From contig NW_018408592.1 of NCBI RefSeq assembly GCF_002113885.1, forward strand, positions 454,657 through 518,656: 64,000 nt of DNA. The letters run 5' to 3'. Under the pieces are notes generated by a model that ran no database searches, was not told the origin of the DNA, and worked only from the letters and a program-made list of their open reading frames with translations. Positions 5,267-61,600 of this stretch are shown here, one piece after another; position 1 is the stretch's first letter, and each line of letters starts with the position of its first letter. The DNA is from Mizuhopecten yessoensis (lineage: Eukaryota). The translations under genes and the position numbers were made by a program.

Positions 5267-7299
5267 TCATTTGAAATTATAGAGTACAAAGAGACTGCAG
5301 ATAACGACCGAGAGTTGCATGTCGAAGGACATACTGGAACTGACGCCATTTGTCTCCCGACATCGTCTCAGTTGATTAGGCACGTCTTTGTTCCAGAATT
5401 TCATCCGGTCGACCCACAGCGCGTGCCCCAAAGAATCCGTCACTGATATGTTGATATAAGACTTGTTAGACAGGGTGTATTGAGGCCATTCCAAAAGGTC
5501 AGAGTCGTTGCCATTCGGATTTCTAAAACATACATATTTATTGTAATGCAGTGATGTATTGATAAACGATTTATGTAAATTACGATTTTGGAGCAGACAA
5601 ATGCCATGCGTAGACAATATTTTTTTACATAAAGCTGTTTTTTTAGATAATTCTATTATAAACTTGTATTGACGCTTTATTTGCAAAAAAAAAGGTGTTG
5701 AGGAACTATATTGCAACTCCTTTTGTTATCTCAAAACAACGATTAACGTTATTGCTCTTACCCAGATTTGGCGAAATTTGTCCAGTAGGACATGATTCTC
5801 CTCGATATTGCCAGTTCAGTGTCGTCCTTAGGAATATCGCTAGGGTACATTTCGTTCAGACCAAATACAAAGGCGATGTCGTCACCGTGGTTTGCTCCAT
5901 GCAGCCACAGTGGTCTTGGCTCTACCAGTCCCCATCGGGGCTCGTGTGAAAACAAGTACTGGTACGTCTTAGCGTTGGTCCCAAGGTGAGCATCTAAAGA
6001 CCGGAAGGCTTGACTGTGATAGATGACGTCAGCATAGAGTTTTATGGCACGAGACGTTTGAGCGTCAAGGTCACCATTTGGTATAGGGTAGACGTACCTG
6101 TCAGCTATCGATTTGGAAATATCATCACAGTTGCCATACAGCTGTCGAACAAGAGTAGGTATGACATTGTTATTTGCAATACTAGCCGGTATTGCTACGG
6201 TGAAGTTGAACGTCGGAAACTCTCTCTGGTGACGAAGGAGATCTTTATAAAATATCCCGGCCTCCGCTGAATTAAGCCCTGTCAAAAAGTCAACATCTCG
6301 GAAAAACTTCATAGCATCACTTTCGTAGTCGGTTAATTTCGCCTCAAAGTCTTCTGAAAACAGCTCCCCGTCTATTGTAGGGCCCATAGCTGAAAGTATG
6401 GTAAAGCTGGCATCTTGCACAGCATTAAATGCTGCGTAAAATGCAATGGTTAGTTGTTCGGCGCTTTGTCGACGTAAACACTTCACGGTTGAGACCGAAG
6501 AGTCGGAGGAACAGCCAAGTTCATTCACTACCCTTGAAAATACTTTCATCGCCTCCACACCAGAATTACGGGGCCCCACACTTGATCCGCTCTGTGCGAT
6601 GACCCTCTGAAACAGACCTCTATTCTGAGGAATAATCGCTAGCATGCCAACACTGACCGCTCCCGCGGATTCGCCGAATATAGTCACTCTTGTAGTGTCG
6701 CCACCGTAATCTCCGATATTGTCTTTAACCCACTGAAGAGCTAACATTTGGTCCCAAAGTCCATAGTTGCCAGAGTTATCACCCGTGGTAAAGAAACCAA
6801 ACAAGTTCAGCCTGTAGTTGACTGTTACAACGATCACATCGCCATGAAGTGCGAGAGTTGAGCCATCGGTTTTGGATCCACTTCCGGAAATAAAACCCCC
6901 GCCGTGAAACCACACCATCACTGCACGTTTCGCTGATGCGTCTAGACTGTTGGGCACAAACACATTGAGATATAAACAATCTTCTGACACGTGAGTTCCA
7001 CTTTGCATACATGCGTCCATGTATGTTGTACAGTTGAGAATTCCACTCCATGCGTTTGGCACCTCTGGTTTTCTGAATCGAAGATCTCCTATCGGTGGTT
7101 TAGCAAAAGGTATTCCCTTGAACTGGAAACTGCTCCCATTGTCTAGCGAGACGTTGAGACCTAAGACGGGCCCGAGTCGTGTTGACCATTGGATTGTGGT
7201 GCTAGGTAGGTCACTGCTTGGTTGTGATAGTACATGGTTTCCCTGTAGCAAGAGCAAGCTGAGGACACCGTACCATCCGACTGACTGAATTTCGGTCAT
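5267..7299 (-). CDS. Type-B carboxylesterase/cholinesterase-family protein, ~597 aa, signal peptide and probable GPI anchor; exons 7299-5762 and 5522-5267
   Basis: Motifs GIPFAKPP.G.LRF, SEDCLYLNV, HGGGF oxyanion loop, GESAG (catalytic Ser), NSAE (Glu), HGDD (His), YWTNFAKSG|NPN spliced across a GT-AG phase-2 intron. Hydrophobic N- and C-termini. Confidence 0.93.
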
Positions 7300-8279
7300 G
7301 ATGGCTGATAAATGGTCTACCTCTTCTGCAAAACAAATAAGAATGTTAGAAACCAGTGGTAACCTTACTCACCGTGAGCAAGATTGATTCTACTGGATAG
7401 TTCATAATGGTTGCTTAATATACGTTGCTTCCTGTAAACTTATCATACTCATGTTTTGAGGAACGAGACCAACACTGATTTTTTTTTCTATGCCGGGTAT
7501 CCTCCTGAATATTAATCTGTCTTGAATTATATTACAGAGGAACTAGAAAATATCTAATTTTATCTTGTTCATATCCCTTTTAATAACGCCACGATTTTGT
7601 GTATTTAGGGACAATTTGTAAATGAATTTTCCGAAAATGTCATGGTGATAGCAAACTTACATAAAGTACTTCGGAAGCCTATGTGTTAGAATCTAAGTTT
7701 TCAGCAATTTTGTTTCTTGTTTAAATTATTGTATTTTACAAGCGGGACACTTTCAGACATTTATCTCAAAGGAAATCTGAGTCTAATTTTTTTTTCAAAA
7801 CGGCGAATGTAATGCTATTAATAACTTCAGATGAATAACGCAAGTACATCTAGGTATTTGGTTTTTTCAATAACTTCAATATCAAATAAGAGATCGGCCA
7901 CATTTATTGACATATTGGGGTTTAAGAAGCAGCGTCCACTGTAGAGGCTGTGAACGATTGTGAAATGCAGGTGATAAAGTAACAAGCATTAAAAGTTATT
8001 TATATGATTTTTTAATATATTTCAAGAGGATACGTCTATCGAGAGCGTACACCTTATTATCAAAAGTGGAAATAAATGTCCCTTTTCGATTAACATTACT
8101 ATATGACAAATACCGATTTAAGTTTTATTGAAATTCTCCAGGTTGATATTGTTGGTTGCAAACTTTAAGTGATTGCGGTAGCAATCAAGGATTAAAAAAA
8201 ATATAAGAGGTAACTAATGTTGGGAAACCCTTGTAGAATTTGGGATTTGATTTTGTATTCTTGATTTTGACGACCTCAA

Positions 8280-10059: not shown

Positions 10060-12678
10060 TTAGAGACAAAGTAAGACGTTAAATAAAACTCAGGTACAGA
10101 AAGGGACAGAGTAAGACGTAAAATAAAACTCGGGTACAGATAGGGACAGAGAAAGACGTAAGAGAAATCTCGGGTACAGATAGGGACAGAGTAATACGTA
10201 AGATAAAACTCGGGAACAGTTAGGGACAGAGTAATACGAAAGATAAAACTAGGGTACAGACAGAGACATAGTAAGACGTAAGATAAAACGCTGGTACAGA
10301 TAGGGACAGAGTAAGACGTTAGATAAAACGCGGGTACAGATAGAGACAGAGAAAGACGTAAGATAACAATCGGATACCGATAGAGACATAGTAAGACGTA
10401 AGATAAAACGAGGGTACAGATAGAGACAGAGGAAGACGTAAGATAAAAATCGGATTCAGATAGAGACATAGTAAGACGTAAGATAAAACTAGGGTACAGA
10501 TAGAGACAGAGTAAGACGTAGGATAAAACGCGGGTACAGATAGGGACAGAGAGATCCGTAAGAGAAATCTCGGGTACAGATAGGGACAGGGAAAGACGTA
10601 AGAGAAATCTCGGGTACAGATAGGGACAGAGAAAGACGTAAGAGAAATCTCGGGTACAGATAGGGACAGGGAAAGACGTAAGAGAAATCTCGGGTACAGA
10701 TAGGGACTGAGTAATACGTAAGATAAAACTCGGATACAGATAGAGACAGAGTAATTCGTAAGATAAAACTCGGGTACAGTTAGAGACAGAGTAATACGTA
10801 AGAGAAAACTCGGGTACAGATAAGGACAGAGTAATACGTAAGATAAGACTCGGGTACAGTTAGGGACAGAGTAATACGAAAGATAAAACTAGGGTACAGA
10901 CAGAGACATAGTAAGATAACACTCAGGTACAGATAGAGACAAAGAAAGACGTAAGATAAAAATCGGGTTCAGATAGAGACATAGGAAGACGTAAGATAAA
11001 ACTAGGGTGCAGATAGAGACATAATAAGACGTAAGATAAAACTCGGGAACAGATACCGACAGAGACATAGTAAGATAACACTCAGGTACAGATAGAGACA
11101 GAGTATGACGTAAGATAAAACGCGGGTACCGATAGGGACAGAGTAAGACGTAAGAGAAATCTCGGGTACAGATAGGGACTGAGTAATACGTAAGATAAAA
11201 CTCGGGAACAGTTAGGGACAGAGTAATACGTAAGATAACACTCGGGTACAGATAAGGACAGAGTAATACGTAAGATAAAATTAGGGTCCAGATAGAGACA
11301 GAGTAATACTTAAGATAAAGCTCTGGTATAGTTAGGGACAGAGTAATACGTAAGATAAAACCCGCGTACAGTTAGGGACAGAGTAATACGAAAGATAAAA
11401 CTAGGGTACAGACAGAGACATAGTAAGACGTAAGATAAAACGCGGGGACAGATAGAGACAGAGAAAGACGTAAGATAACAAGCGGATACAGATAGAGACA
11501 TAGTACGACGTAAGATAAAACTCGGGTACAGATAGAGACATAGTAAGACGTAAGATAAAACGCGGGTACAGATAGAGACAGAGTAACGTAAGATAAAACT
11601 CAGGTACAGATAGAGACAAAGTAAGACGTAAGATAAAACGCGGGTACAGATAGGGACAGAGTAAGACGTAAGATAAAACTAGAGACAGATAGAGACAGAG
11701 TAAGACGTAAGATAAAACGCGGGTACAGATAGAGACAGAGTAAGACGTAGGATAAAACGCGGGTACAGATAGGGACAGACTAAGACGTAAGATAAAACTA
11801 GAGACAGATAGAGACAGAGTAAGACGTAAGAAAGACGTACGATAAAAATCGGGTTCAGATAGAGACATAGTAAGACGTAAGATAAAACGCGGGTACAGAT
11901 AGGGACTGAGTAAGACGTAAGGTAAAACTAGGTTACAGATAGAGACAGAGTAAGACGTAAGATAACACGCGGGTACAGATAGGGACAGAGTAAGACGTAA
12001 GAAAAAACTAGAGACAGATAGAGACAGAGTAAGACGTAAGTTAAAACGCGGGTATAGATAGGGACAAAGTGAGACGTAAGATAAAACGCCGGTACAGATA
12101 GGGACTGAGTAAGACGTAAGGTAAAACTAGGTTACAGATAGAGACAGAGTAAGACGTAGGATAAAACGCGGGTACAGATAGGGACAGAGTTAGACGTAAG
12201 ATAAAACGCGGGTACAGATAGAGACAGAGTAACGTAAGAGAAAACTCAGGTACAGATAGAGACAAAGTAAGACGTAAGAAAAAACGCGGGTACAGATAGG
12301 GACAGAGTTAGACGTAAGATAAAACGCGGGTACAGATAGAGACAGAGTAACGTAAGATAAAACTCAGGTACAGATAGAGAAAAAGTAAGACGTAAGATAA
12401 AACGCGGGTACAGATAGGGGCAGAGTTAGACGTAAGATAAAACGCGGGTACAGATAGGGACTGAGTAAGACGTAAGGTAAAACTAGGTTACAGATAGAGA
12501 CAGAGAAAGACGTAAGATAGCAATCGGGAACAGATAGAGACATAGTAAGACGTAAGATAAAACGCGGGTATAGATAGGGACAAAGTTAGACGTAAGATAA
12601 AACGCCGGTACAGATAGGGACTGAGTAAGACGTAAGGTAAAACTAGGTTACAGATAGAGACAGAGTAAGACGTAAGAG
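10060..12678. repeat. ~40-bp satellite array (~2.6 kb)
   Basis: Unit gtaagacgtaagataaaacgcgggtacagatagagacaga, about 65 copies with deletion variants. Confidence 0.97.
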
Positions 12679-14180: not shown

Positions 14181-33234
<19,054 letters not shown>

Positions 33235-39159: not shown

Positions 39160-41671
39160 GTTGTGCTGAAAAACTTCAAGCTACCAGAAAGCCATGGGAA
39201 AAACTAAGTTGCCATCGTGAAAATTGACGCAGGATCCGGGTTATAAGACATGGGAATCTTCATAGATACGCGTTAGACAAATGTTAACATATGTAATTTA
39301 GCGGACGTCAACGTTTAGCGTATTCTCGAATTTCAACAGATACGCATATATTGATGAACTAGCGCAACAAAATAATTCTGAATTATTTAAGTGCATTATT
39401 GTTAAATAACGGAAAGTGCTGAAAATAGAATACCACCAAAATTTGGACGTTTACAGTAACTCTTACAAAAATTGACGCAGGATTCCGATCTCCGCAACAC
39501 ATACAAAACTTCATTAATGAAATCAGTGGGACAAGTTGCACTTACAAAAGAGTGTTAGAAAGGGGGAAATCTGACATGCGATGGGTAATTAAAATAGAGA
39601 GCTAATGAAAATAGAGAGTTTGTAATCGTTTCACTCTGTACGACCTTTTAACACGTTCGTCTCGGGTTGTACACATGCATGGTTCGGCGTTGCCCTACAT
39701 GTCTGTTAACTTTTAATTCCTGGGGTTACTCCTAAACCGTTGGAATGATTTTTAGAGAACTCCATCAGCATATAAAATGTTTTCTCGTACAATGATAAAA
39801 ATGAGATGGACTAAGTCGGGTGACGGGAGCTTTAAAAGTGTATTAAAACAAATGTGAGAAGTTCATATGAAGGTATCTTAATTTCTGAATTTGATTGCTC
39901 CAGAAGAATTATTACATCGTTCGCAAGTAGGACAGAAAACACAATATATCGTGACTCCGAATATAAAACAATACTTTTAGAAGGGGTTACAACAATAACG
40001 CATACCGTTAGATGTAGTGTAAATTCTGCCTGCCCGCAATATAAAATCCGCTATATATATATACAATCAATATTGCCCACGTTTTTGATATCTCTCGTTG
40101 ACTCACTTAATAGGTCCTCTACATCAGCGTTCCTTGTCCGCGATGCTCTCAGCGTAATTGCTGCCTTCGGCTGTCTTTAGCGGAGGGGACTATTGGTTTT
40201 ATAAAATAGCTATATTTTCAATTATAGTATATCAATTCTATCTTCTTGTAATATGATGTATATGTACATGTAACTGTTCTTTTTCACTGTGTCTTGAAAA
40301 TTTGACAACCTAAACTTGTCCACACTGTTGGAATTACTTCTTTGCCCCATATACAATCAATATTGATATATTTGTATTTCTTTCACAAATGTAAATTAGA
40401 CGATGCACTCATGATCCATTGCAAATTTTGTTTAAAGTTAAATTTCGGTAATATTGACAGATAATCAATTTTTTAATATTATAAAATCGAATTTCTGTTA
40501 AGAGAGGAGACGTTAATTCACTTATGATTTGAAGAAGTATAAGGGAGATAACCTTGTGACACACGGGTATCGGTAGCAGTGTCTGGGAATACAACGCTAC
40601 ATTGTACACGCAGAAGGTAGGAAAAGTAATTATGTTTACTTACACAAATCACGTATATACTATTGAAGACAGGCATAGCACCAAAGCTGTACCATAACTT
40701 CTTAGACTGCTGTCAAGATGCGTTCCCAGCGCTGTTGTTGTTTACAACTTCAGTGAAGTAGGTCATTGTGCTCAGCTGTAATCGGCCTTGGGCTTCTCCA
40801 GCATGTGGGCGTTTCTTAGTAGACCGTAAAACAATCTGATTTCGAACCAGATAAGGAAACAAAGTAATGCTGAACAATTGTTAAACAACTCCGTACAAAC
40901 GATTTAAAATCTTTATGAACAGGTGCATAGAAGGCTGATGCATATATGTCTATGAACTATAAATTGATAAGTCTTATATCAAGCCTGTGAATATATATAC
41001 GCACGCTAACTTTGTTTGATATTGTATATATAATCAGGCCGTGGTTCATATAAACCCATTCTCAAAAGAACCTCGTGACCGGCTCCGCTCCACCCGTTCA
41101 AAGCGATGAGGAATTTTCTATATGCATTTATACCTCATTTACTAAATTTCTGAAAAACAATATACATAATATTATAATCACTTATTGGAAATGCAGCTTT
41201 AATTTACAATATGAAAAGTAGATGTAATTTAAGTGTTATTATATTGTAAGGTAATTTTAGAATCACAACACCATCTTCGAAATTCTACGGGTTGCGCTCA
41301 AGATGGCCGTGCACGTACATGCTTTTGCTACTAAGTATAGACAAACATAAGAGAATGTTTGTCGTCCCATTTATGGCCACAAAGATATAACTTGACCCCT
41401 GTCCCTCTGTCGATAAATCCCTAACAAGTTCGACAATCACTGAGGTTGGCCGTGGCCCATAGATATTTGGATTAATTCTGGCACGGTTTTATTTTTAACA
41501 ATGTTGTAGCAAACTTTAAATACGCAACGTTTTCAAGGGACTTACAGACGCATTCCCCTTTTGCTGTATGACATATATACCTGTTACTGGATTGTGTTGT
41601 GTTTGTGATCGAGTCACGAATTCCTCTAGAAAATCAGAATAATCTAGTTTATCACAAACAACTATAATATA

Positions 41672-42011
41672 CGTAGCAGGAACGGGAAAATGCACGACCA
41701 GACCGGGGTTCGAACCCGGAACCCTACAAACTCTAGACGAACGCTCTACCAAGTTGGCTACCTGGTCGCCGACGATCGACCCAGTCCAGTACCGCTACAC
41801 TCCTCCTTCCTTTTTCTGAGTCTTCACCACCGAAGACACATCTATTTACAACCCCAGGTTCGGGTATCTCCTTGCGAAGCATTCACCTAGTACTTGAAAC
41901 AAGGGTTTATCACAGAAACCAAATGCAACGCACTGCCATACCGGGGTTCGAACCATGGACCCTCCGAACTCTAGACGGACGCTGACGGTCAACAAGTCCA
42001 GTTCCGCTACA
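41672..42011 (-). mobile_element. Non-autonomous mini LTR retrotransposon (TRIM) with tRNA-like LTRs, Helenus-like
   Basis: Two direct repeats starting TGTAGCGG on the minus strand (42011-41924 and 41799-41672). PBS-like TGGTTTCTGTG 2 nt after the 5' LTR. Polypurine tract GAAAAAGGAAGGAGGAG abuts the 3' LTR. B box in both LTRs; A box in the complete 3' LTR. Confidence 0.8.
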
Positions 42012-42192
42012 TAAACAGCTATTCATGTAAGTCCTCTTCCTGCCTCTTTTTTATTTCGGAAACACAACCATCAACAACAAATAAGAAAAATCAACATCTA
42101 TATATATACGACAGCTGTATTTGTACATATATTTCGGAACACGCTTGACATGGCTTTCACTCTTCAGACATTCAAATTAGTACCAATGGCGA

Positions 42193-42835
42193 GTCCTAAA
42201 TTAAAGAAATGGTCAAAGGATGTAAAAGACATTTTGTCCTAAATTAAAGAAATTGTGAAAGGTTGCAGAAGAACCGTTGTCCTAAATTAAAGAAATGGTT
42301 AGAGGGTGCAGGAGACCCGTTGTCCTAAATTAAAGAATGGTTAGAGGGTACAGGAGACCCGTTGTCCTAAACTAAAGAAATGGTTACAGTGTGCAGGAGA
42401 CCCGTTGTCCTAAATTAAAGAAATGGTTAAAGGGGTGCAGGAGACCCGTTGTCCTAAATTAAAGAAATGATTAGAGGGTACAGGAGACCCGTTGTCCTAA
42501 ATTAAAGAAATGGTTAGAGGGTGCAGGAGACCCGTTGTCCTAAATTAAAGAAATGGTTAGAGGGATGCAGAAGACCCGTTGTCCTAAATTAAAGAAATGG
42601 TTAAAGGGGTGCAGGAGACCCGTTGTCCTAAATTAAAGAAATGGTTAGAGTGGTGCAGGAGACGCGTTGTCCTAAATTAAAGAAATGGTTAGAGGGGTGC
42701 AGGAGACCCGTTGTCCTAAATTAAAGAAATGGTTACAGGGTGCAGGAGACCCGTTGTCCTTAATTAAAGAAACGGTTACAGGGTGCAGGAGACCCGTTGT
42801 CCAAAATTAAAGAAATGGTTACAGGGTGCATAAGA
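42193..42835. repeat. ~43-bp minisatellite, about 15 copies
   Basis: gttgtcctaaattaaagaaatggttagagggtgcaggagaccc. Confidence 0.95.
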
Positions 42836-47970: not shown

Positions 47971-48975
47971 TTAGCGCCTGTTGTATCCCCCACCATTTCC
48001 GCCACCACCTCCTCCTCGGTTGTAATTCCCTTGACCCTGGTTGTAGGGAGTTGTTCGCTGCTGATTGTAGCCACCACCTCCACCACCACCTCGCATTGCT
48101 CCACCCCCATAACTATCACCATAGTTTTGTCCAAAGCTCTGCTGCTGGTTGCCACCCCAGGTTCCACCGGTGTTCTGAGTTTGATTGTTGTAACCACTGT
48201 TGTAGTTTTCGTAACCCCCGGTACTTCCTTGGTTCCAATCACCACCGCCACCTCCTTGGTTATAACCACCGCCTTGATTATAGTCATTGTATCCCCCCTG
48301 CTGGTTGTAGCCACCACCTTGGTCCCAGTCACTTCGACCTCCTCCTCTTCCCCCTCCCATTCCACCTCGACTACCACCGCGTCCTCCCATACCACCTCGA
48401 CCACCACCACGTCCTCCCATTCCACCTTCTTGATCCTTAGGCACAGCCTTCTTTACTTCCACTGTTTTACCATTTACATCATGCCTCTTTTGTAACACGC
48501 ATTGATCAACAGGGTCGTAGTCATAGAATGTCACAAAGCAAAACCTTTTGTTTTTGCCGGTGTTTTTGTCTTTGATCAAGTCTACTTTCTCAATATCTCC
48601 GTAATCACCGAATACTGCACGGATCTGATCTTCGGTAGCATCCTCGGAAAGCCCACCAACAAACATTTTCTTGCACGATTGTGATGATTCTCCTTCGCCA
48701 CCATCTTTATTTCTTGGCATAGCACGCTTTGATTCTACTTGCCTGCCATCAAGTTTATGGGGACGATTCTTTTGTGCATCATTCAGCTGATCGGGATTCT
48801 TATATGTGATGAATCCAAAACCTCTTGAACGTTTGGTGTTCGCGTCTTTCATGACCACGCAGTCGATTACTTCTCCCCATTGTTCAAAATGACTCTTTAG
48901 GCTGTCTTCGGTGGTATCATAGCTCAGACCACCAATAAAAAGCTTCCTGAATTGTTCGTTTTCACGGTCTCCCAT
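47971..48975 (-). CDS. HNRNPA1: Heterogeneous nuclear ribonucleoprotein A1/A2-B1-like (2 RRMs + Gly-rich low-complexity tail), 334 aa, intronless CDS
   Basis: RNP2 KLFIGGLS, RNP1 RGFGFITY, second RRM KMFVGGL, VEVKKAVPK, RGG boxes, G/Y/N/Q-rich tail, RTTPY PY-NLS-like motif. Likely start is ATG 48975; the ORF track starts at an upstream TTG. Confidence 0.95.
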   Translation of the reverse strand: MGDRENEQFRKLFIGGLSYDTTEDSLKSHFEQWGEVIDCVVMKDANTKRSRGFGFITYKNPDQLNDAQKNRPHKLDGRQVESKRAMPRNKDGGEGESSQSCKKMFVGGLSEDATEDQIRAVFGDYGDIEKVDLIKDKNTGKNKRFCFVTFYDYDPVDQCVLQKRHDVNGKTVEVKKAVPKDQEGGMGGRGGGRGGMGGRGGSRGGMGGGRGGGRSDWDQGGGYNQQGGYNDYNQGGGYNQGGGGGDWNQGSTGGYENYNSGYNNQTQNTGGTWGGNQQQSFGQNYGDSYGGGAMRGGGGGGGYNQQRTTPYNQGQGNYNRGGGGGGNGGGYNRR

Positions 48976-49019
48976 AGTTATTGGTGTTTGTATATATCGC
49001 AACTAGTCTTTCTAGTTCA

Positions 49020-52676: not shown

Positions 52677-55600
52677 ATGGCGAACCGACTTGGAGAGTTC
52701 TATGCACGTATTACCAAAGATCTGGACATCACCATGGACTTTTGGTTAAAACATTCACACGATGAGAATAATGGGTAGGACGTAGTTTATATGGCAAGCC
52801 AACATCAGGATCCCTGTACCACTGCGAAACCTGTATCTATGCATTGGAAACTGTTTTTTCCCGGCATGATTATTTAAAGCTTTGATCAATCATTACTTAA
52901 AAGAAAACAATTAAAACATTGCGTGACTTTTATGAACAAATAGGATAGAATAAACAAAAAATAATCAATAAAAAAAATCTGAGTGTAACATATCTCTGTA
53001 GTCAGACCAGGATTCGAACCCTGGTGCTCAGATTGTTATCAACTGTCTGACTACCTGATCAACGGAAGTACTTATCCTAAACGGAATTAAGGGGATGTTA
53101 CTGTATGTACGAATCAACAGTGGAACTCTCTAGTGTTTTGCTTGCAGTGGGACAGGGACCCTTAAATAATACCCAAAGAAAGAAAATAGGAGTGATTCAG
53201 TGAATAAGATATGTCTAAAATTGAATTAAATTTAAGGTATACTTTAATGAATTCAAGATATATTTATAGGTAATAGAGATAAATATAATATATTTCAACG
53301 AAAGCATTTAAAATTATTGCCATATTTATTTTCGTAATTGCTTCAACCAAATTATTTATATTTAACTTAATCTAGATTGCCGCCAAATCGATAAATAAAC
53401 AAGAAATCTTTTTTGTTTTTCAGGGGATTTTTTAATTGTCTCAGTAAAGATGGAAAGGTGTATGACCGACTGAAACACGTCTGGCTACAGGCAAGACAGG
53501 TATGTGGTAACGGTTACAGAAGGGACAGGTATGTGATGTCTGTTACAGGAGAGACAGGTGTTTGGTAACGGTAACAGGAGAGACAGGTATTTGTGGTGAC
53601 GGTTACAGGAGAGACAGGTGTGTGGTAACGGTTACAGGAGAGACAGGTATATGTGGTGATGGTTACAGGAGAGACAGGTGTGTGGTAATGGTTATAGGAG
53701 AGACAGATATGTGGTGACGGTTACAGGAGAGACAGGTGTGTGGAAACGGTTACAGAAGAGACAGATATGTGGTGACGGTTACAGGAGAGACAGATATGTG
53801 GTGACGGTTACAGGAGAGACAGATATGTGATGTCTGTTACATGTGAGACATGTGTGTGGTAAAAGTTACGGGAGAGACAGGTATATGTGGTAACGGTTAC
53901 AGGAGAGACCGGTGTGTGGTAAAAGTTACGGGAGAGACAGGTATATGTGGTGACGGTTACAGGAGAGACAGGTGTGTGGTAACGGTTACAGTAGAGACAG
54001 GTATGTGGTGACGGTTACAGGAGAGACAGATATGTGGTGACGATTACAGGAGAGACAGATATGTGGTGACGGTTACAGGAGAGACATGAGTGTCGTAACG
54101 GTTACAGGAGAGACATGAGTGTCGTAACGGTTACAGGAGAGACAGAAATGTGGTAACGGTTACAGAAGGAACAGGTATACGATGACTGTTACATGAGAGC
54201 CATGTGTGTGGTAACGATTACAAGAGAGACAGGTATGTGGTAATGGTTACAGGAGAGACAGATATATGTGGTGACGGTTACAGGAGAGACATGTGTATGG
54301 TAACAGTTACAGGAGAGACAGATATGTGGTGACGGTTACTGGAGAGACAGGTGAGTGGTAATGGTTACAGGAGAGACAGATATGTGGTGACGGTTTCAGG
54401 AGAGACAGGTATATGTGGTGACGGTTACAGGAGAGACAGATATGTGGTGACGGTTACAGGAGAGACAGGTATGTGGTAACGGTTACAGGAGAGACAGGTA
54501 TATGTGGTGACGGTTACATGAGAGACAGATATGTTGTGACGGTTACAGGAGAGACAGGTATATGTGGTGACGGTTACAGGTGAGCCAGGTGAGTGGTAAT
54601 GGTAACAGGAGAAACAGATATGTGGTGACGGTTACAGGAGAGACAGATATGTGGTGACGGTTACAGGAGAGACAGGTGTGTGGTAACGGTTACATGAGAG
54701 ACAGATATGTTGTGACGGTTACATGAGAGACAGGTATGTGGTGACGGTAACAGGAGAGACAGGTATATGTGGTGACGGTTACAGGAGAGACAGGTATATG
54801 TGGTGACGGTTACAGGTGAGACAGGTGTGTGGTAACGGTTACAGGAGAGACAGGTATGTGGAAACGGTTACAGGAGAGATATGTGTTTAATTATTGGAAC
54901 AATATCTATACAGCTTAATGTGACGAACTTTATGCGGTCTTACGTCTTTATAGATTTTGGCAACTAGATTATTTGTTTTCTTCACTTTTAGTGATTAATC
55001 GGGAGCTACATGAAATAATGCAGTGGTCACAATAATGACAGGTTATTTATTGATTACTTGAACAGGTATGGACATACTGTCGCCTTTACAACGAAGTGGA
55101 GCGATTCCGACGACCAGACATCTTACAGACAGCTATTAAAGGTCAGTACACCTACCATACATATACTTATCATGTAATCATGTCCGACTATCGAGCTACT
55201 ACTTATCCGGTTACAGCTGTCCGCTATCTAACTAAAACTAAATCGGTTTACCCACTATCGAGTCGCCACTAATCCGGTTGTTCTGATAATTGGCCACCAC
55301 TTTACTGATTACCGACTGGGCTAGTGAGCGTATGCCATGGCGCGGCGTCAGTCGTCCGTCGATCCGTCCGTCCGACGTCCGTCAACTTTTCCTGAGGAAT
55401 GGAAAGGCCACCCTAGAGTCATGATATTTGGCTGAAAGCTTCATTGGTTAAAGACGAAGTTTGCAAATGAAAATGACCTTGATCTACTTTCAAAGTCACA
55501 GGGGTCAAACATGGCAAACATTTCAAACGATTTCTTTTGAAGAACTGAAAGCCATATAATCTTAATATTTGGCTAGTAGCTTCTTGGGATGGAGCTCAAC

Positions 55601-58600
55601 AGAGATTGCGGGTAAAAGACATCGACCTTCTTCCAAGGTCACAGGGGTCAAATATGTAAAAAAAAAATCAAACAACTTCTTCTGAAGAACTGAAATGTAT
55701 ATAATCTTAATATTTGACTGGTAGCTTTTGGGATGAATCCTGACGAATGTTGCGAATGAAAATGAAATTGACATTGACCTACTTTGAAAGTCACAGAGGT
55801 CAAATATGCCAAAAACTCCAAACGACTTGAAGAACTGAATGTATAGAATATCAATATTTGGCTGGTAGTTTCTTGGGAGCCCAACAAAGTTTGCAAATGA
55901 AAATAACCTAGACTGTTACAAGGGCCAAACATTTCAAACAACTTCTAAAGAAGAACCAAATGGCATAGAATCATTATGTTTGGCTGGTAACTACCACAGA
56001 TGCAGCCTGACAAATTTTGCGACTAAAATGACCTCGACCTACTTTCAAGGTCACAGGGATCAAATGTGTTTACATCTTTAAATTACCTTTTTTTCCTGAA
56101 TAACCAAAGGACTCATGGTGATAACATTTGACCAGATGCATGATAGAATCATGGGATGGCTATCAATTGTGTTAAAATGAATAGTTTTATCCTTTATGTT
56201 TAAGGTCACAGGGGTCAAATGGTCTGAACAAATCAAAGTATTTCTTCTGAATATCCAAGAAGAGGCCTAGAGTGATGATATTTGACCAGTGTTTAATGGA
56301 ATGACCTTGGCCTACTTTCTTGGTCATATGGGTCAAATGTGTTAAAATCCTGACATGACTTCTTCTCAATAACCAAAAGCCACAGGGTGATGCTGTTTGG
56401 GATTAAGGGATACCAAGTTTGTCCAGCTGAATGACTTTCAAGGTCACTGGAATAAAATCAGATTGTTTTAAATATTATAAATCAAGAGTCATAGGTAAGG
56501 ATAGTTACCCAATAGTTTTATTTAGGCTAAATAAGTACATATGACTTGGTCCACTTTTAAGCTTAAAAGTGTGGGAATAATAGCAGGTGAGCGATACAGG
56601 CCCTTTGGGTATCTTGTTCAAAAGTTTCAATCTTAATTGTTTCCCATTGTATGTATATTATAACTATACTTGATTATTAACTAAAAGAATACTGTTTAAA
56701 CTAAACACACAACTGATTCGGAATTTTACTGAAAATAAAGTGTATCACCTTATACTTATAATTTTAGGAATGAACTTTCTACAAAAACACGCTAAGGACC
56801 CGCAGACCTGGAAGTGCCACCTGGTACTGACAGAGGACGGCAAAGCCGTAAAGACCCAGCGCTCCATCTTCTCGGAGTGTTTCTATCTGATGGCTCTGTC
56901 CGAGACAGGCAGAGCGAGCGGGGACAATACTTACATGGTGCATTCATTCATTTAATTCAACTGGAATTTTAAAATGATTCAAATCTTTTAAAGCTATACG
57001 CCACTTTTAGACCTTGAGAGTATGATGTTTGATGTTTACTTCATTACTGTCAACGTGGTCTTAACCTTGAGAATACTGACCTGTGTGCGCAACCGACTTC
57101 ATATCCTTTCTTTTTTTCAAGTTCGAGTTCATGTGTAAAAGCCGACGTTTTCTTCAGTCATAAAACACATACTAAAGGAAGTTTTCGCACTTACTGTTCT
57201 AACAGTCAAGTTTTTTTTTCTTTGACCAATTGATGTGACTTTTGACCTTGACCTATATTCTTTGTACCATTGATGTGACCTTAACCTTGGACAACGAACA
57301 GTGTTCGATACACACCTTCTAGTCATAACGTATATGTACTTATCAATGAACAGTCATCAAACAATTGTTATCGGTTCAGAAGGTACAGTCTGTAAATTTG
57401 ACAAATCCCTTGCTGTGACCTTGACCTTGTGAAAGAGATATTGCTTATAGCTATAATGTTTTGAGATGGTTTTATTTGCCCTATTATCACTGTTTGAATA
57501 CATTAATTCAAAGAATTCAAAGTTCAAACAAACTTTAGCAAGTGATGTAGTGCGAAATGAAAAGAGCAACTTGAGCCTGAGAGTGCCACGGTGAATTCCA
57601 TCCGTATCCACGACAACTTCAAGTGATGGTCTGTTGAATAGGCTCATTTTGACACAATTGTGTAATTGTAAACTCTTCATTAATACATATATGTGTGACC
57701 TTAGCTACTCTTTATTAGACCATAGCTGTTGATAGGACGTAAAAAACAAATCTTTATTTCAATGACTCCTTAGGCAGAGGCCTTACAGATGATGGACAAG
57801 ATAGTGTTCTGGGTTCGCGAGGACGACACAGACTTGGGACAGCCCGCTATGGAGGGTGCGGTGTCCACCAGCTCACTCGCTGTACCCATGATGCTGATGT
57901 GTTTGATTGATCAGCTGGAAACAGTAGACCCAACACTGGAAGTCAAGTACAGGGATCTCACAGGCTGGTGTCTGACAGAGGTCAAGAAACATATCCAGGT
58001 AAGTTTGGTTAATGCAGATCCTTGAGTTCAATAAAAAAAAACCACCACCACATGTAAATCAAAATGAAAAGTATTGTAAAATGATTATCATACCATTTCT
58101 TTGAAAGAAAACATTTCAAACTTGGCTATTCAATCCAAAATTATTCTTTTAAAATAGTCCATGCACGTGATCTCATTCTGTGCTCCGAAATCACAGAGAA
58201 AATGTTATTTATTTATTCTTATTATCAGTCACCAATAGGCTTACACTGTTTACAGAGGGACGGATCTGTTATCTTGGAGAATGTGAGTCCGGAAGGGGAG
58301 GAACTCCCAGGAAGTATGGGGAGGTTGATGCTACCAGGCCACTCCATCGAGGCTGGCTGGTTCCTACTGCAGCACGCCATCAACAAGAGTAAGGACGACC
58401 TGAAAAAGATGGCCATTGACAAGTTCATCCTAAACCCTTTCCAGTACGGCTGGGACAAGACACACGGGGGACTGCTGTACTTCCTGGACGTGGACAACTG
58501 GTCACCAACACAACTCGAGTGGGACATGAAACTGTGGTGGGCCCACAACGAGGCTCTCATAGCCTTCCTCATGGTGTACAAAGAAACCGAGGACACCAAA

Positions 58601-61600
58601 ATGATTGACATATTCGCAAAAATATTCGACTACAGCTACTCCCACGTAAGAAATACGCATGTTTATACTTAAAATACTGTCTAGGTATTGTATTGTCATA
58701 TTGTTAATTCAGATGATATTTATTTGCCGCTTTATTAGTTTCCAGTTAAATATGAATCCCTGAATTAGGAGTCCCTATTTAAATATCAAACTAGAACACT
58801 GACAGGTCAGTAAGGACCCCGTCTTGTGGAAATATATACCCCATAATCATCAAGAAGCAATCTGCCCATATAGCTGAGCTTGACGTTTGACATTTGGACT
58901 TCAAAAAGAATCACAAGGAAGCAAAATATACATTTTACATGTACTATGATGTGAGTCTTGTTTCCTTCCACCTCCACATTTGCTGGGCTAACAGAAATGT
59001 AAATACCGGTGCAATACTCATTTGTTAGCTTTGAATTGTTTTATTTCACCTTATTTACCTCCTCCATCAAGAGCCAGGGTCAAAGTCAGAGATCCACATT
59101 GTCTTTGACCTTTGGACCCAAAAGACCTTGACCATAAACCCAGTGACCCTGATCTTTGNNNNNNNNNNNNNNNNNNNNNNNNNNNNNNNNNNNNNNNNNN
59201 NNNNNNNNNNNNNNNNNNNNNNNNNNNNNNNNNNNNNNNNNNNNNNNNNNNNNNNNNNNNNNNNNNNNNNNNNNNNNNNNNNNNNNNNNNNNNNNNNNNN
59301 NNNNNNNNNNNNNNNNNNNNNNNNNNNNNNNNNNNNNNNNNNNNNNNNNNNNNNNNNNNNNNNNNNNNNNNNNNNNNNNNNNNNNNNNNNNNNNNNNNNN
59401 NNNNNNNNNNNNNNNNNNNNNNNNNNNNNNNNNNNNNNNNNNNNNNNNNNNNNNNNNNNNNNNNNNNNNNNNNNNNNNNNNNNNNNNNNNNNNNNNNNNN
59501 NNNNNNNNNNNNNNNNNNNNNNNNNNNNNNNNNNNNNNNNNNNNNNNNNNNNNNNNNNNNNCCCCATAATCATCAAGAAGCAATCTGCCCATATAGCTGA
59601 GCTTGACGTTTGACATTTGGACTTCAAAAAGAATCACAAGGAAGCAAAATATACATTTTACATGTACTATGATGTGAGTCTTGTTTCCTTCCACCTCCAC
59701 ATTTGCTGGGCTAACAGAAATGTAAATACCGGTGCAATACTCATTTGTTAGCTTTGAATTGTTTTATTTCACCTTATTTACCTCCTCCATCAAGAGCCAG
59801 GGTCAAAGTCAGAGATTCACATTGTCTTTGACCTTTGGATCCAAAAGACCTCGACCATAAACCCAGTGACCCTGATCTTTGGTCAGTTGACTTATTCCTT
59901 ATTTCCGTCCAACTTTGCTTCTTAATATCATAACAAAATGTTCATCAGTGAAAAATACAAACTTGACCTTGACCCTTGACTCTGTGTTAAGTTCTGAATA
60001 ACATTGCTTCATAATGTCATATCAAAATGTTCATCAGGGAAAAGGTACAAAATTTAACCTTCACCTTTAACCCAGTGACCTTGACCTTTGGTCAATTGAC
60101 TCCTTGTTTAATTCTGAGCAACATTGCTTCAAAGTGTCATAGCGAAATGTTCACCAGTGAAATGATACAAAATTTAACCTTGACCTTTGACCCAATGACA
60201 TTGACTGATTACTATAGAGCACCCGTATCTCCGATACGGGGCCCTAATAATAATAACAGTAATAACTTCAGATCTCCTAACATTTCATCTCGAGATATTG
60301 AACTTTCTGCAAGTAACATATGGGACATACTTTAAGTCGAATAGCAAACTTTTAAGTTTTGGGATTCAATATGGCCACCATGGCCTTTGATTGGCTGAAA
60401 CAATTACAGTTAGAGTTGTTGTGGGGGTGATAAAAGGGATGTACACTGTGTTTAACAACTGTTTTTTAAGTCTTGGAATTAAAGATAGCTGCGTTGGCCT
60501 CCGATTGGTTGATACATAAATAATGGTAAGCTTCGTCATGTTGGGCCGATTTGGATGTATTTTTTGTAATGCTTCATTACTAACAGCTTGGGGTGTGATA
60601 ACGATCTGTGTTTTTAGGCTCATTTTCATCACAACATATTTTCTATGGTCATGACAGAGCGGGATATTGCTTTGCCATTTGCCTACAGGTCTAGATAACA
60701 ACGCACAGTTTGCCCCACTTAGAACATACTTAGTTTTTGTATATTTTGCGGGCTTACCAAGTTCCGTCAAAATTAAATGATAGTTTAGAAACCTTGAGTG
60801 GCGTCTTAAATATCAGTGAACACTTCATATTTTTTTACCAATTAACAGGCATTATATAAACAAGAGGCCCATGGGCCTTAACGGTCACCTGAGTCTNAAA
60901 AATATACACGCACCTATTGTATTAGGAGGACCAATGGCATCCCCAGGTAGTGGGATGCAGAAACCATATTCTCATCCTATGGCAGTTTTTGTTCTAGTTA
61001 TATTTCACTAACATTCTGTGTATGGTTGAAAATGAGAGGAAGGTCAAAGTCTGAGGTGTTCTATGTGCATAAACTCAAATTTAAACCTCCACTGCTAGGT
61101 CCTTCATAAGCATTTCCAGAAGAAATTGCGTTTATAGGGTTATGAACTCAATTTGATCAGCGTCTTTATGAAGTTTCTCCTCCTGCCTTGAATAACGAGA
61201 GACAACCGTTAGAAGCAAACATTTTAGTGACGTTAGGCTGTTCCAGGAATCTCGTTTGCATTGAAGACAGACACTTCAATATCGTATATCTATATTAAGA
61301 TCAACATTATCTTTAAGATTTATAATGGAAATATATGTATTGAACAATATTTCATTGTTCATTGCTGCTCAATCTTAATGTGACTGAAATGTATGACCAT
61401 CATGGGATGTAAAGCATGTATGGTAACAGTCGATACTAGTGTCCAATGCTGATAATTTTCATTTTCCCATTTTCTCTCTTTTTCATCAAGTTTGTTGACG
61501 AGAAAAATGGCGAATGGTACGGATATCTCAATCGAAATGGAGAAATCAGCATGGACTTCAAGGGTGGACCTTGGAAAGGTAACAAGTTCAGAATAAATGT

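What the first reader, a model, noticed from the sequence alone, without database searches (positions are those of the whole stretch)
41672..42011. Miniature LTR retroelement whose LTRs are tRNA-like Pol III units (Helenus-type)
Seen on the minus strand: 5' LTR (42011-41924, TGTAGCGG...TGCA, internally deleted), TT, PBS-like TGGTTTCTGTGATAAACCC, ~120 bp of non-coding interior, PPT GAAAAAGGAAGGAGGAG, and 3' LTR (41799-41672, TGTAGCGG...CTACG). The full LTR embeds a cloverleaf-like segment: acceptor-type pairing GACCAGG/TCTGGTC, A-box-like TAGCCAACTTGG, CTAGAGT loop and B box GGTTCGAACCC. Established: Cassandra TRIMs carry 5S in their LTRs, and tRNA-in-LTR elements were only recently described as Helenus. 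Inference: a SINE-like parasite that uses Pol III transcription but LTR-type replication. It would normally be mis-annotated as two SINEs or pseudo-tRNAs, and this family may be uncatalogued.
Basis: partly seen in the sequence, partly recalled or inferred. Interest (0 to 1): 0.7.

Follow-up and report, generated by a model that had tools for sequence, protein, structure and literature searches.

The report
Scallop mini-retrotransposon with split primer site
This is a decayed copy of a tiny, gene-less jumping element of a known kind (Helenus), likely from a scallop, whose family carries a second stretch matching its predicted primer tRNA, so the primer likely binds in two pieces, as in yeast Ty1.

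Summary
Confirmed. Window 41672-42011 (-) is a decayed 340-bp TRIM: two tRNA-containing LTRs, PBS, PPT. It belongs to a multi-copy family with TG...CA ends, 4-bp TSDs (20 of 29 copies within one mismatch; chance 4.1), solo LTRs and tandem arrays. It is Helenus: the 3' LTR is about 83% identical (hand count) to scallop Helenus-2_PeMa. The family is not in the parts of Kojima's 2024 data I read or searched.

New here: the same LTR occurs with three primer sites (tRNA-His, tRNA-Lys, tRNA-Arg-ACG). His-type interiors have a short PBS, a hairpin, then 14 nt complementary to the tRNA-His T-stem and variable loop (perfect in 8 of 27 copies; shuffles reach at most 10). Lys-type interiors lack this and carry a short tRNA-Lys box instead. 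Published bivalve His families keep the box (13 of 15); fish families with a full PBS lack it. I infer a Ty1-like split primer site, which Kojima's text does not mention.

Pol III transcription and the helper element remain unshown, and this copy lacks its 5' A box. The scan noted Helenus-type elements before in diatoms and fungi, not this family.

The parts
42012..42015 (-). left target-site duplication (TTTA)
   Evidence: 3 of 4 bases match the right flank; family TSD is 4 bp
41924..42011 (-). 5' LTR, 88 bp; A box and T run deleted, B box kept (41944-41954)
41908..41921 (-). degenerate PBS for tRNA-His (first part of the split site)
   Evidence: 4 substitutions against paralogues
41870..41905 (-). 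hairpin 1 between the two tRNA-pairing parts (predicted)
   Evidence: cofold
41848..41862 (-). second tRNA-pairing box, complementary to tRNA-His positions 43-56 (10 nt perfect here, then a 1-nt insertion)
41820..41837 (-). hairpin 2 (GTCTTC...GAAGAC), shared by His, Lys and Arg interiors
41800..41817 (-). polypurine tract
41672..41799 (-). 3' LTR, 128 bp, TG...CG
41695..41767 (-). tRNA-like segment with A box (41749-41760) and B box (41706-41716); T4 run at 41687-41690 just after it
41668..41671 (-). right target-site duplication (TATA)

Best explanation
The locus is a decayed, likely inactive copy of a non-coding Helenus-type mini LTR retrotransposon, whose intact relatives were likely transcribed by RNA polymerase III from the tRNA-like box in the LTR and likely copied by a Gypsy helper from a host tRNA-His primer predicted to bind in two pieces. 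Shown: the layout, TG...CA ends, 4-bp TSDs, solo LTRs, tandem units, and both complementarities to the host tRNA-His. Inferred: the tRNA's last 14 nt pair with the short PBS, a hairpin loops out, and tRNA positions 43-56 (T-stem 5' strand and variable loop) pair with the second box, giving a three-way junction like the extended Ty1 site. Inferred: the PBS is inherited from the element RNA rather than recopied from the tRNA, which is why a bulged PBS persists family-wide. The same LTR also spread with tRNA-Lys and tRNA-Arg interiors.
For: Layout in 28 of 28 other distinct loci. 4-bp TSD perfect in 7 and within one mismatch in 20 of 29 copies with intact ends; shuffled flanks give 0.8 and 4.1 (maximum 11); widths 3, 5, 6 give 5, 1, 0. 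8 of 30 LTR-start loci are solo LTRs with a 3/4 or 4/4 TSD. A box in 42 and B box in 29 of 44 LTRs. Second box: 14-nt Watson-Crick run to host tRNA-His in 8 of 27 interiors and 9 nt or more in 15 of 27; 0 of 27 reach 9 nt with Cys, Lys-CTT, Lys-TTT or Thr; 5000 shuffles reach at most 10. Unconstrained cofold gives the junction in 3 of 3 paralogues (-19 to -25 kcal/mol with His, -7 to -9 with Lys); shuffling the box raises it to a mean of -8 to -11 in 7 copies chosen for an intact box. By eye, 13 of 15 published bivalve His interiors keep 8-13 contiguous pairs although the hairpin sequence differs, and 6 of 8 changes in the core are G-U compatible; 12 of 12 fish His interiors have a near-full 18-nt PBS and no box. 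Lys sisters with the same LTR lack the box and have ACCCAC, matching tRNA-Lys 49-54, in 8 of 10. One LTR of this family is followed by a perfect 19-nt copy of tRNA-His including CCA, then unrelated DNA (L041), as expected of a dead-end plus-strand product. tRNA-His and tRNA-Arg-ACG, the two primers on this interior, share an identical T arm.
Against: No pairing, priming or Pol III transcript was measured. RNA-seq reads from the family lie about equally in both orientations, 91% run on into unlike sequence and no start or end peak appears, which fits passive read-through. In Arg-type copies the box is decayed: 0 of 20 have 9 or more Watson-Crick pairs to tRNA-Arg, and cofold uses it in 2 of 4. 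The Lys evidence is weak alone (6-nt box; the anticodon-stem match has P=0.03). 12 of 27 His copies have under 9 nt. The box can also pair 8-10 nt with the element's own LTR T arm, and its tail with the bases after the PBS. Two pearl-oyster families have an interrupted box. No autonomous Gypsy was found among 9 loci with a full His PBS. tRNA-His of the other species was not checked.
Confidence: 0.72

Rival explanations
1. Ordinary Helenus TRIM; the second box is a relic of an ancient run-on copy of tRNA-His, later split by a hairpin, and no longer pairs with the primer.
For: The two parts are colinear with the tRNA complement, with only about 5 nt missing at the T loop. Run-on copies of 19-24 nt occur in the genome. 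The Arg type keeps the His-specific tail that tRNA-Arg cannot pair with.
Against: The box is kept across oysters and scallops while the hairpin sequence has turned over, and its changes are mostly G-U compatible. A Lys-fitting box sits at the matching place in 16 of 18 bivalve short-PBS Lys families and 6 of 6 wasp families read.
Confidence: 0.13
2. The box is kept for an intramolecular structure (pairing with the element's own LTR T arm, or closing the PBS region as a packaging or strand-transfer signal), not for the host primer.
For: 8-10 nt pairing with own LTRs in 7 of 7 copies tested. Self-folds pair the box tail with the bases after the PBS. This would explain its retention in the Arg type.
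Against: The match to tRNA-His is longer and perfect (14 against 8-10 with G-U). Lys sisters with the same LTR lack the box. Published His families with unrelated LTRs have it.
Confidence: 0.12
3. Two tRNA-derived SINEs or tRNA pseudogenes side by side.
For: The 3' LTR scores as a tRNA.
Against: Fixed TG...CA ends, one TSD length around the whole unit, PBS, PPT and solo LTRs; anticodons vary between copies.
Confidence: 0.01

Closest known systems
Helenus-2_PeMa and Helenus-1_ArIr (scallop Helenus; Kojima 2024, PMC10886601, Data S1 and Table S1)
   Same: LTR of 128-130 bp, about 83% identical to the window's 3' LTR (108 of 130 columns against 2_PeMa, counted by hand); same hairpin 2 and PPT; 4-bp TSD. 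The Lys-primed sister in G000 looks like their orthologue.
   Different: Both published families are tRNA-Lys primed with 90-93-bp interiors. The window's family joins this LTR to a 122-bp His-type interior, and a third sister has a tRNA-Arg-ACG PBS, a primer not listed for bivalves (motif absent from the supplement).
His-primed bivalve Helenus (Helenus-4_PeMa, 4_ArIr, 2_MiYe, 2_SaGl, 2C_CGi)
   Same: Short, often bulged His PBS, hairpin, the same second box, hairpin 2, PPT.
   Different: Different LTRs and hairpin sequences. The paper's main text has 0 hits for 'bipartite', 'activation signal' and 'hairpin', and Fig. S2 shows only the first ~20 nt.
Ty1 extended PBS and Ty3 bipartite PBS; HIV-1 primer activation signal
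   Same: A short PBS plus further pairing with the primer tRNA; in Ty3 the T arm pairs with a second segment; primer sequence is not inherited and dead-end plus-strand products accumulate (passages of PMC5371799; PMC3592414).
   Different: Those are autonomous elements with tested interactions. Ty3's second part is about 4800 nt away; here it is about 45 nt downstream, behind a hairpin, in a non-coding element. That the HIV signal pairs with the T-stem 5' strand is recalled, not read.
biv-TRIM (PMC6934838)
   Same: Bivalve TRIM with a hairpin in the interior.
   Different: No canonical PBS was found there (passages); sequences were not compared.

Membership tests
Helenus (TRIMp3) | Non-coding element under 1000 bp with two LTRs | tested here: met
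   340 bp here, about 380 bp in paralogues; 122-124-bp interior
Helenus (TRIMp3) | tRNA-derived sequence with A box (TRGCY...YGG) and B box (GGTTC) in the LTR | tested here: met
   Rfam 37 bits; A box 42 of 44, B box 29 of 44 LTRs
Helenus (TRIMp3) | PBS complementary to a host tRNA 3' end | tested here: met
   Host tRNA-His, 14 nt with one bulge in paralogues; degenerate in the window copy
Helenus (TRIMp3) | PPT abutting the 3' LTR | tested here: met
Helenus (TRIMp3) | 4-bp TSD (animal Helenus) | tested here: met
   20 of 29 within one mismatch against 4.1 by chance; 3 of 4 at this locus
Helenus (TRIMp3) | tRNA-like part is not a functional tRNA | tested here: inconclusive
   ARAGORN of 44 LTRs, with 6 isotypes; 5 non-standard pairs in the Rfam alignment; no isotype-model test available
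Helenus (TRIMp3) | Transcription by RNA polymerase III | not testable with these tools
   Only ordinary RNA-seq was at hand; no discrete ends. Also untested in the paper
Helenus (TRIMp3) | Mobilised by a Gypsy element with the same primer | tested here: inconclusive
   A 3.2-kb element with 629-bp LTRs, full His PBS, similar PPT and 4-bp TSD exists (L160); a relative has a sub-cutoff Ty3 capsid hit (E 9e-4); no pol found
SINE2 (tRNA SINE) | Single tRNA head with LINE-like or simple-repeat tail and variable TSD | tested here: not met
Ty1/Ty3-type split PBS | Second segment complementary to the primer outside its 3' 18 nt | tested here: met
Ty1/Ty3-type split PBS | Second segment physically pairs and is needed for priming | not testable with these tools
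   folding prediction only

The most novel reading that the evidence does not exclude
Animal Helenus elements with a short PBS use a split primer site: a second box pairs with the primer's T-stem 5' strand, changes with the primer (His or Lys), is absent when the PBS is full length, and limits which tRNA an interior can switch to (His and Arg-ACG share a T arm). One scallop LTR has swapped primers at least twice, giving a natural experiment on primer activation and helper switching in a 120-nt RNA.
Probability: 0.65. Interest if true: 0.55.

Novelty: new member of a known kind. Interest (0 to 1): 0.42.

Why it matters
As an element it adds a family to a group with 51 published bivalve families, and warns that these LTRs are miscalled as tRNA genes. 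If the split site is real, a 120-nt interior holds all cis signals for priming, which makes it a minimal model for extended primer pairing in metazoan Gypsy-dependent elements. It also offers a rule for primer and helper switching, which Kojima's paper calls unexplained, and suggests that 'short or imperfect PBS' calls in TRIM annotation can hide a second half.

Tried and rejected
Twin-SINE reading: rejected (TSDs, solo LTRs). Functional tRNA-Ser: not supported (mixed anticodons). Antisense B box for the second box: rejected by eye, because the conserved part is the T stem and the flank does not complete a B box in published families. Helper search: 20 of 24 loci with a perfect 18-nt His PBS were read, 9 were extended to 9.5 kb; 11 stop-free stretches gave no RT, RNase H or integrase family. 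No 17-nt Arg-ACG PBS exists in G000. No RNA holder listed. The window locus drew 6 and 3 partial RNA reads: uninformative. The LTR tree has no strongly supported branch, so it gives no order of events; His and Lys LTRs are intermixed and 10 of 12 Arg LTRs group weakly. The tRNA panel is small (6 multi-copy isoacceptors). The similar motif just after the 3' LTR (about 41645-41660) was not resolved. Literature searches for a split PBS in Helenus or TRIMs listed none; subscription papers, Repbase Reports and Dfam are outside these searches. Our-findings searches by sequence and for bivalve split sites were blank.

Full report
Observation. Every part is present at the stated place. The 3' LTR (41799-41672) holds an Rfam tRNA match above the cut-off and is ARAGORN's only call in the window. 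The 5' LTR (42011-41924) lacks 25 bp with the A box and 14 bp with the T run, and the two LTRs differ at 18% of aligned bases. The copy is old and likely inactive: the PBS has 4 substitutions against paralogues, the right end is CG, and the TSD matches at 3 of 4 bases.

Family. A search of the own genome gave 2959 first-look candidates, of which 40 were scored. All 28 other distinct loci fetched have two or more LTRs; this sample favours full-length copies. Among 29 copies with TG...CA ends, of 44 parsed from 58 loci, a 4-bp TSD is perfect in 7 and within one mismatch in 20; shuffled flanks give 0.8 and 4.1, and widths 3, 5 and 6 give no excess. Of 30 loci picked by LTR start alone (from 129 exact hits), by eye 8 are solo LTRs with a TSD, 8 Lys-type, 4 His-type, 2 Arg-type, 2 have the His/Arg backbone with an unresolved PBS, and 6 are truncated or unclear. 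Tandem arrays occur. This is LTR-type integration, not a SINE pair.

Identity. I read parts 1-4 of 6 of Kojima 2024 (PMC10886601) and parts 1, 5, 6, 7 and 10 of 11 of its supplement, plus searches of the whole file. The window's 3' LTR matches Helenus-2_PeMa-LTR at 108 of 130 columns by hand. G000 also holds LTRs close to Helenus-2_MiYe (by eye), so the host is likely the Yesso scallop or a near relative. None of the four families listed for that species has this LTR, and three motifs of this family have 0 hits in the supplement. Repbase and Dfam could not be seen.

Three primers on one LTR. Exact LTR-end+PBS junctions number 167 for tRNA-His (some lie in one satellite-like array) and 52 for tRNA-Lys; the Arg-ACG PBS with its interior start occurs 25 times; all controls are 0. 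The patterns differ, so these are not comparable copy numbers. Host tRNA-His, Lys-CTT and Arg-ACG genes were read from G000. His and Arg types share one 122-bp interior apart from the PBS; the Lys interior is about 88 bp and shares only hairpin 2 and the PPT. Median LTR-LTR distance is 0.078 (Lys, n=5), 0.125 (His, n=27) and 0.176 (Arg, n=12), suggesting successive waves; the tree does not fix an order.

The second box. About 45 nt after the short PBS, His-type interiors carry 14 nt complementary to tRNA-His positions 43-56. The run is perfect in 8 of 27 interiors and at least 9 nt in 15; 5000 shuffles of one interior reach at most 10. Four other tRNAs give 0 of 27 at 9 nt; tRNA-Arg-ACG, whose T arm is identical, gives 11 of 27. 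Unconstrained cofolding yields PBS, hairpin, box as a three-way junction in 3 of 3 paralogues, while the window copy binds weakly (-6.6 kcal/mol). Copies within one family decay neutrally, so the case for selection rests on comparison between families. By eye against the G000 tRNA, 13 of 15 published bivalve His interiors keep 8-13 contiguous pairs, and 6 of 8 core changes are G-U compatible; two pearl-oyster families are interrupted. All 12 fish His interiors seen have a near-full PBS and no box. A CCCAC/CCCAT core fitting the tRNA-Lys T stem follows the PBS in 16 of 18 short-PBS bivalve Lys families and 6 of 6 wasp families read; 8 other bivalve Lys families, with a longer imperfect PBS, lack it. 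In G000, 8 of 10 Lys loci have ACCCAC, and 4 of 10 have a further 12-nt match to the anticodon stem (P=0.03).

Fossil priming products. Of 20 loci read with a perfect 18-nt His PBS (24 in the genome), 6 have a Helenus LTR directly upstream: one of this family (L041, 19-nt copy with CCA, then unrelated DNA) and five of a Helenus-2_MiYe-like family, two of which resume right at the tail of the second box. This fits tRNA-His priming and the Ty1/Ty3 model in which the tRNA copy is a dead end and the PBS is not recopied (passages of PMC5371799). It would explain why a bulged PBS persists.

Against. Nothing was measured at the bench. The Arg-type box is decayed (0 of 20 at 9 nt; used in 2 of 4 cofolds) and keeps a His-specific tail. 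The box can pair 8-10 nt with the element's own LTR, a rival prompted by earlier scan notes on diatom elements. RNA-seq shows family reads in both orientations with 91% running on into other sequence and no discrete ends. No autonomous helper was found; L160 is a non-coding 3.2-kb LTR element with the same primer, a similar PPT and a 4-bp TSD.

Literature. Split and extended primer sites are known for Ty1, Ty3 and Drosophila gypsy (passages of PMC5371799 and PMC3592414; abstract of PMC1635307). Kojima notes primer changes with unknown mechanism and does not mention a second box. PMC6934838, PMC12859917 and PMC13570524 were seen as passages; the last reports modular reshuffling of TRIMs in sugar beet. 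Searches listed no paper on a split PBS in Helenus or TRIMs.

Verdict. Helenus membership is about 97% sure; the split-site mechanism about 65-70%. Interest 0.42.

Noticed in passing
window 47971-49002 (-): Uninterrupted 343-aa frame with two RRM domains and a Gly-rich tail, hnRNP A1/A2-like (name recalled); intronless gene or retrocopy.
   Followed up: partly
window 5758-7368 (-): Long single-exon carboxylesterase frame, PF00135.
   Followed up: partly
window 58085-58672 (+): Exon of an N-acylglucosamine 2-epimerase gene, PF07221.
   Followed up: partly
window 18518-18898 (+): Exon that reads like a JmjC demethylase (recalled motif); no Pfam hit at 0.001.
   Followed up: partly
window 42193-42835: 43-bp minisatellite, about 15 copies, 180 bp from the element; other arrays at 10061-12677 (40 bp), 24177-24893 (30 bp), 53486-54879 (29 bp).
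   Followed up: no
window 52990-53070 (-): Second B-box-like site in a degenerate tRNA-like stretch; possibly another LTR or SINE remnant.
   Followed up: partly
G000:C588:104974-110772: Array with about 54-bp spacing built from the LTR-end/PBS junction of this family: a satellite born from the TRIM.
   Followed up: no
L048:1501-1570: A Helenus LTR followed by a 20-nt tRNA-His copy fused to an inverted piece of this family's LTR at the shared T arm; looks like a template switch.
   Followed up: partly
L160 (G000:C5485:333000-342500): Young 3.2-kb non-coding LTR element (629-bp LTRs, 98% identical) with a full His PBS and a T-stem-matching motif 45 nt upstream of it inside the LTR; candidate relative of the helper lineage.
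   Followed up: partly
L002, L009, L026, L101 flanks: Several copies share similar flanking sequence, so they sit inside another repeat or a duplicated segment.
   Followed up: no
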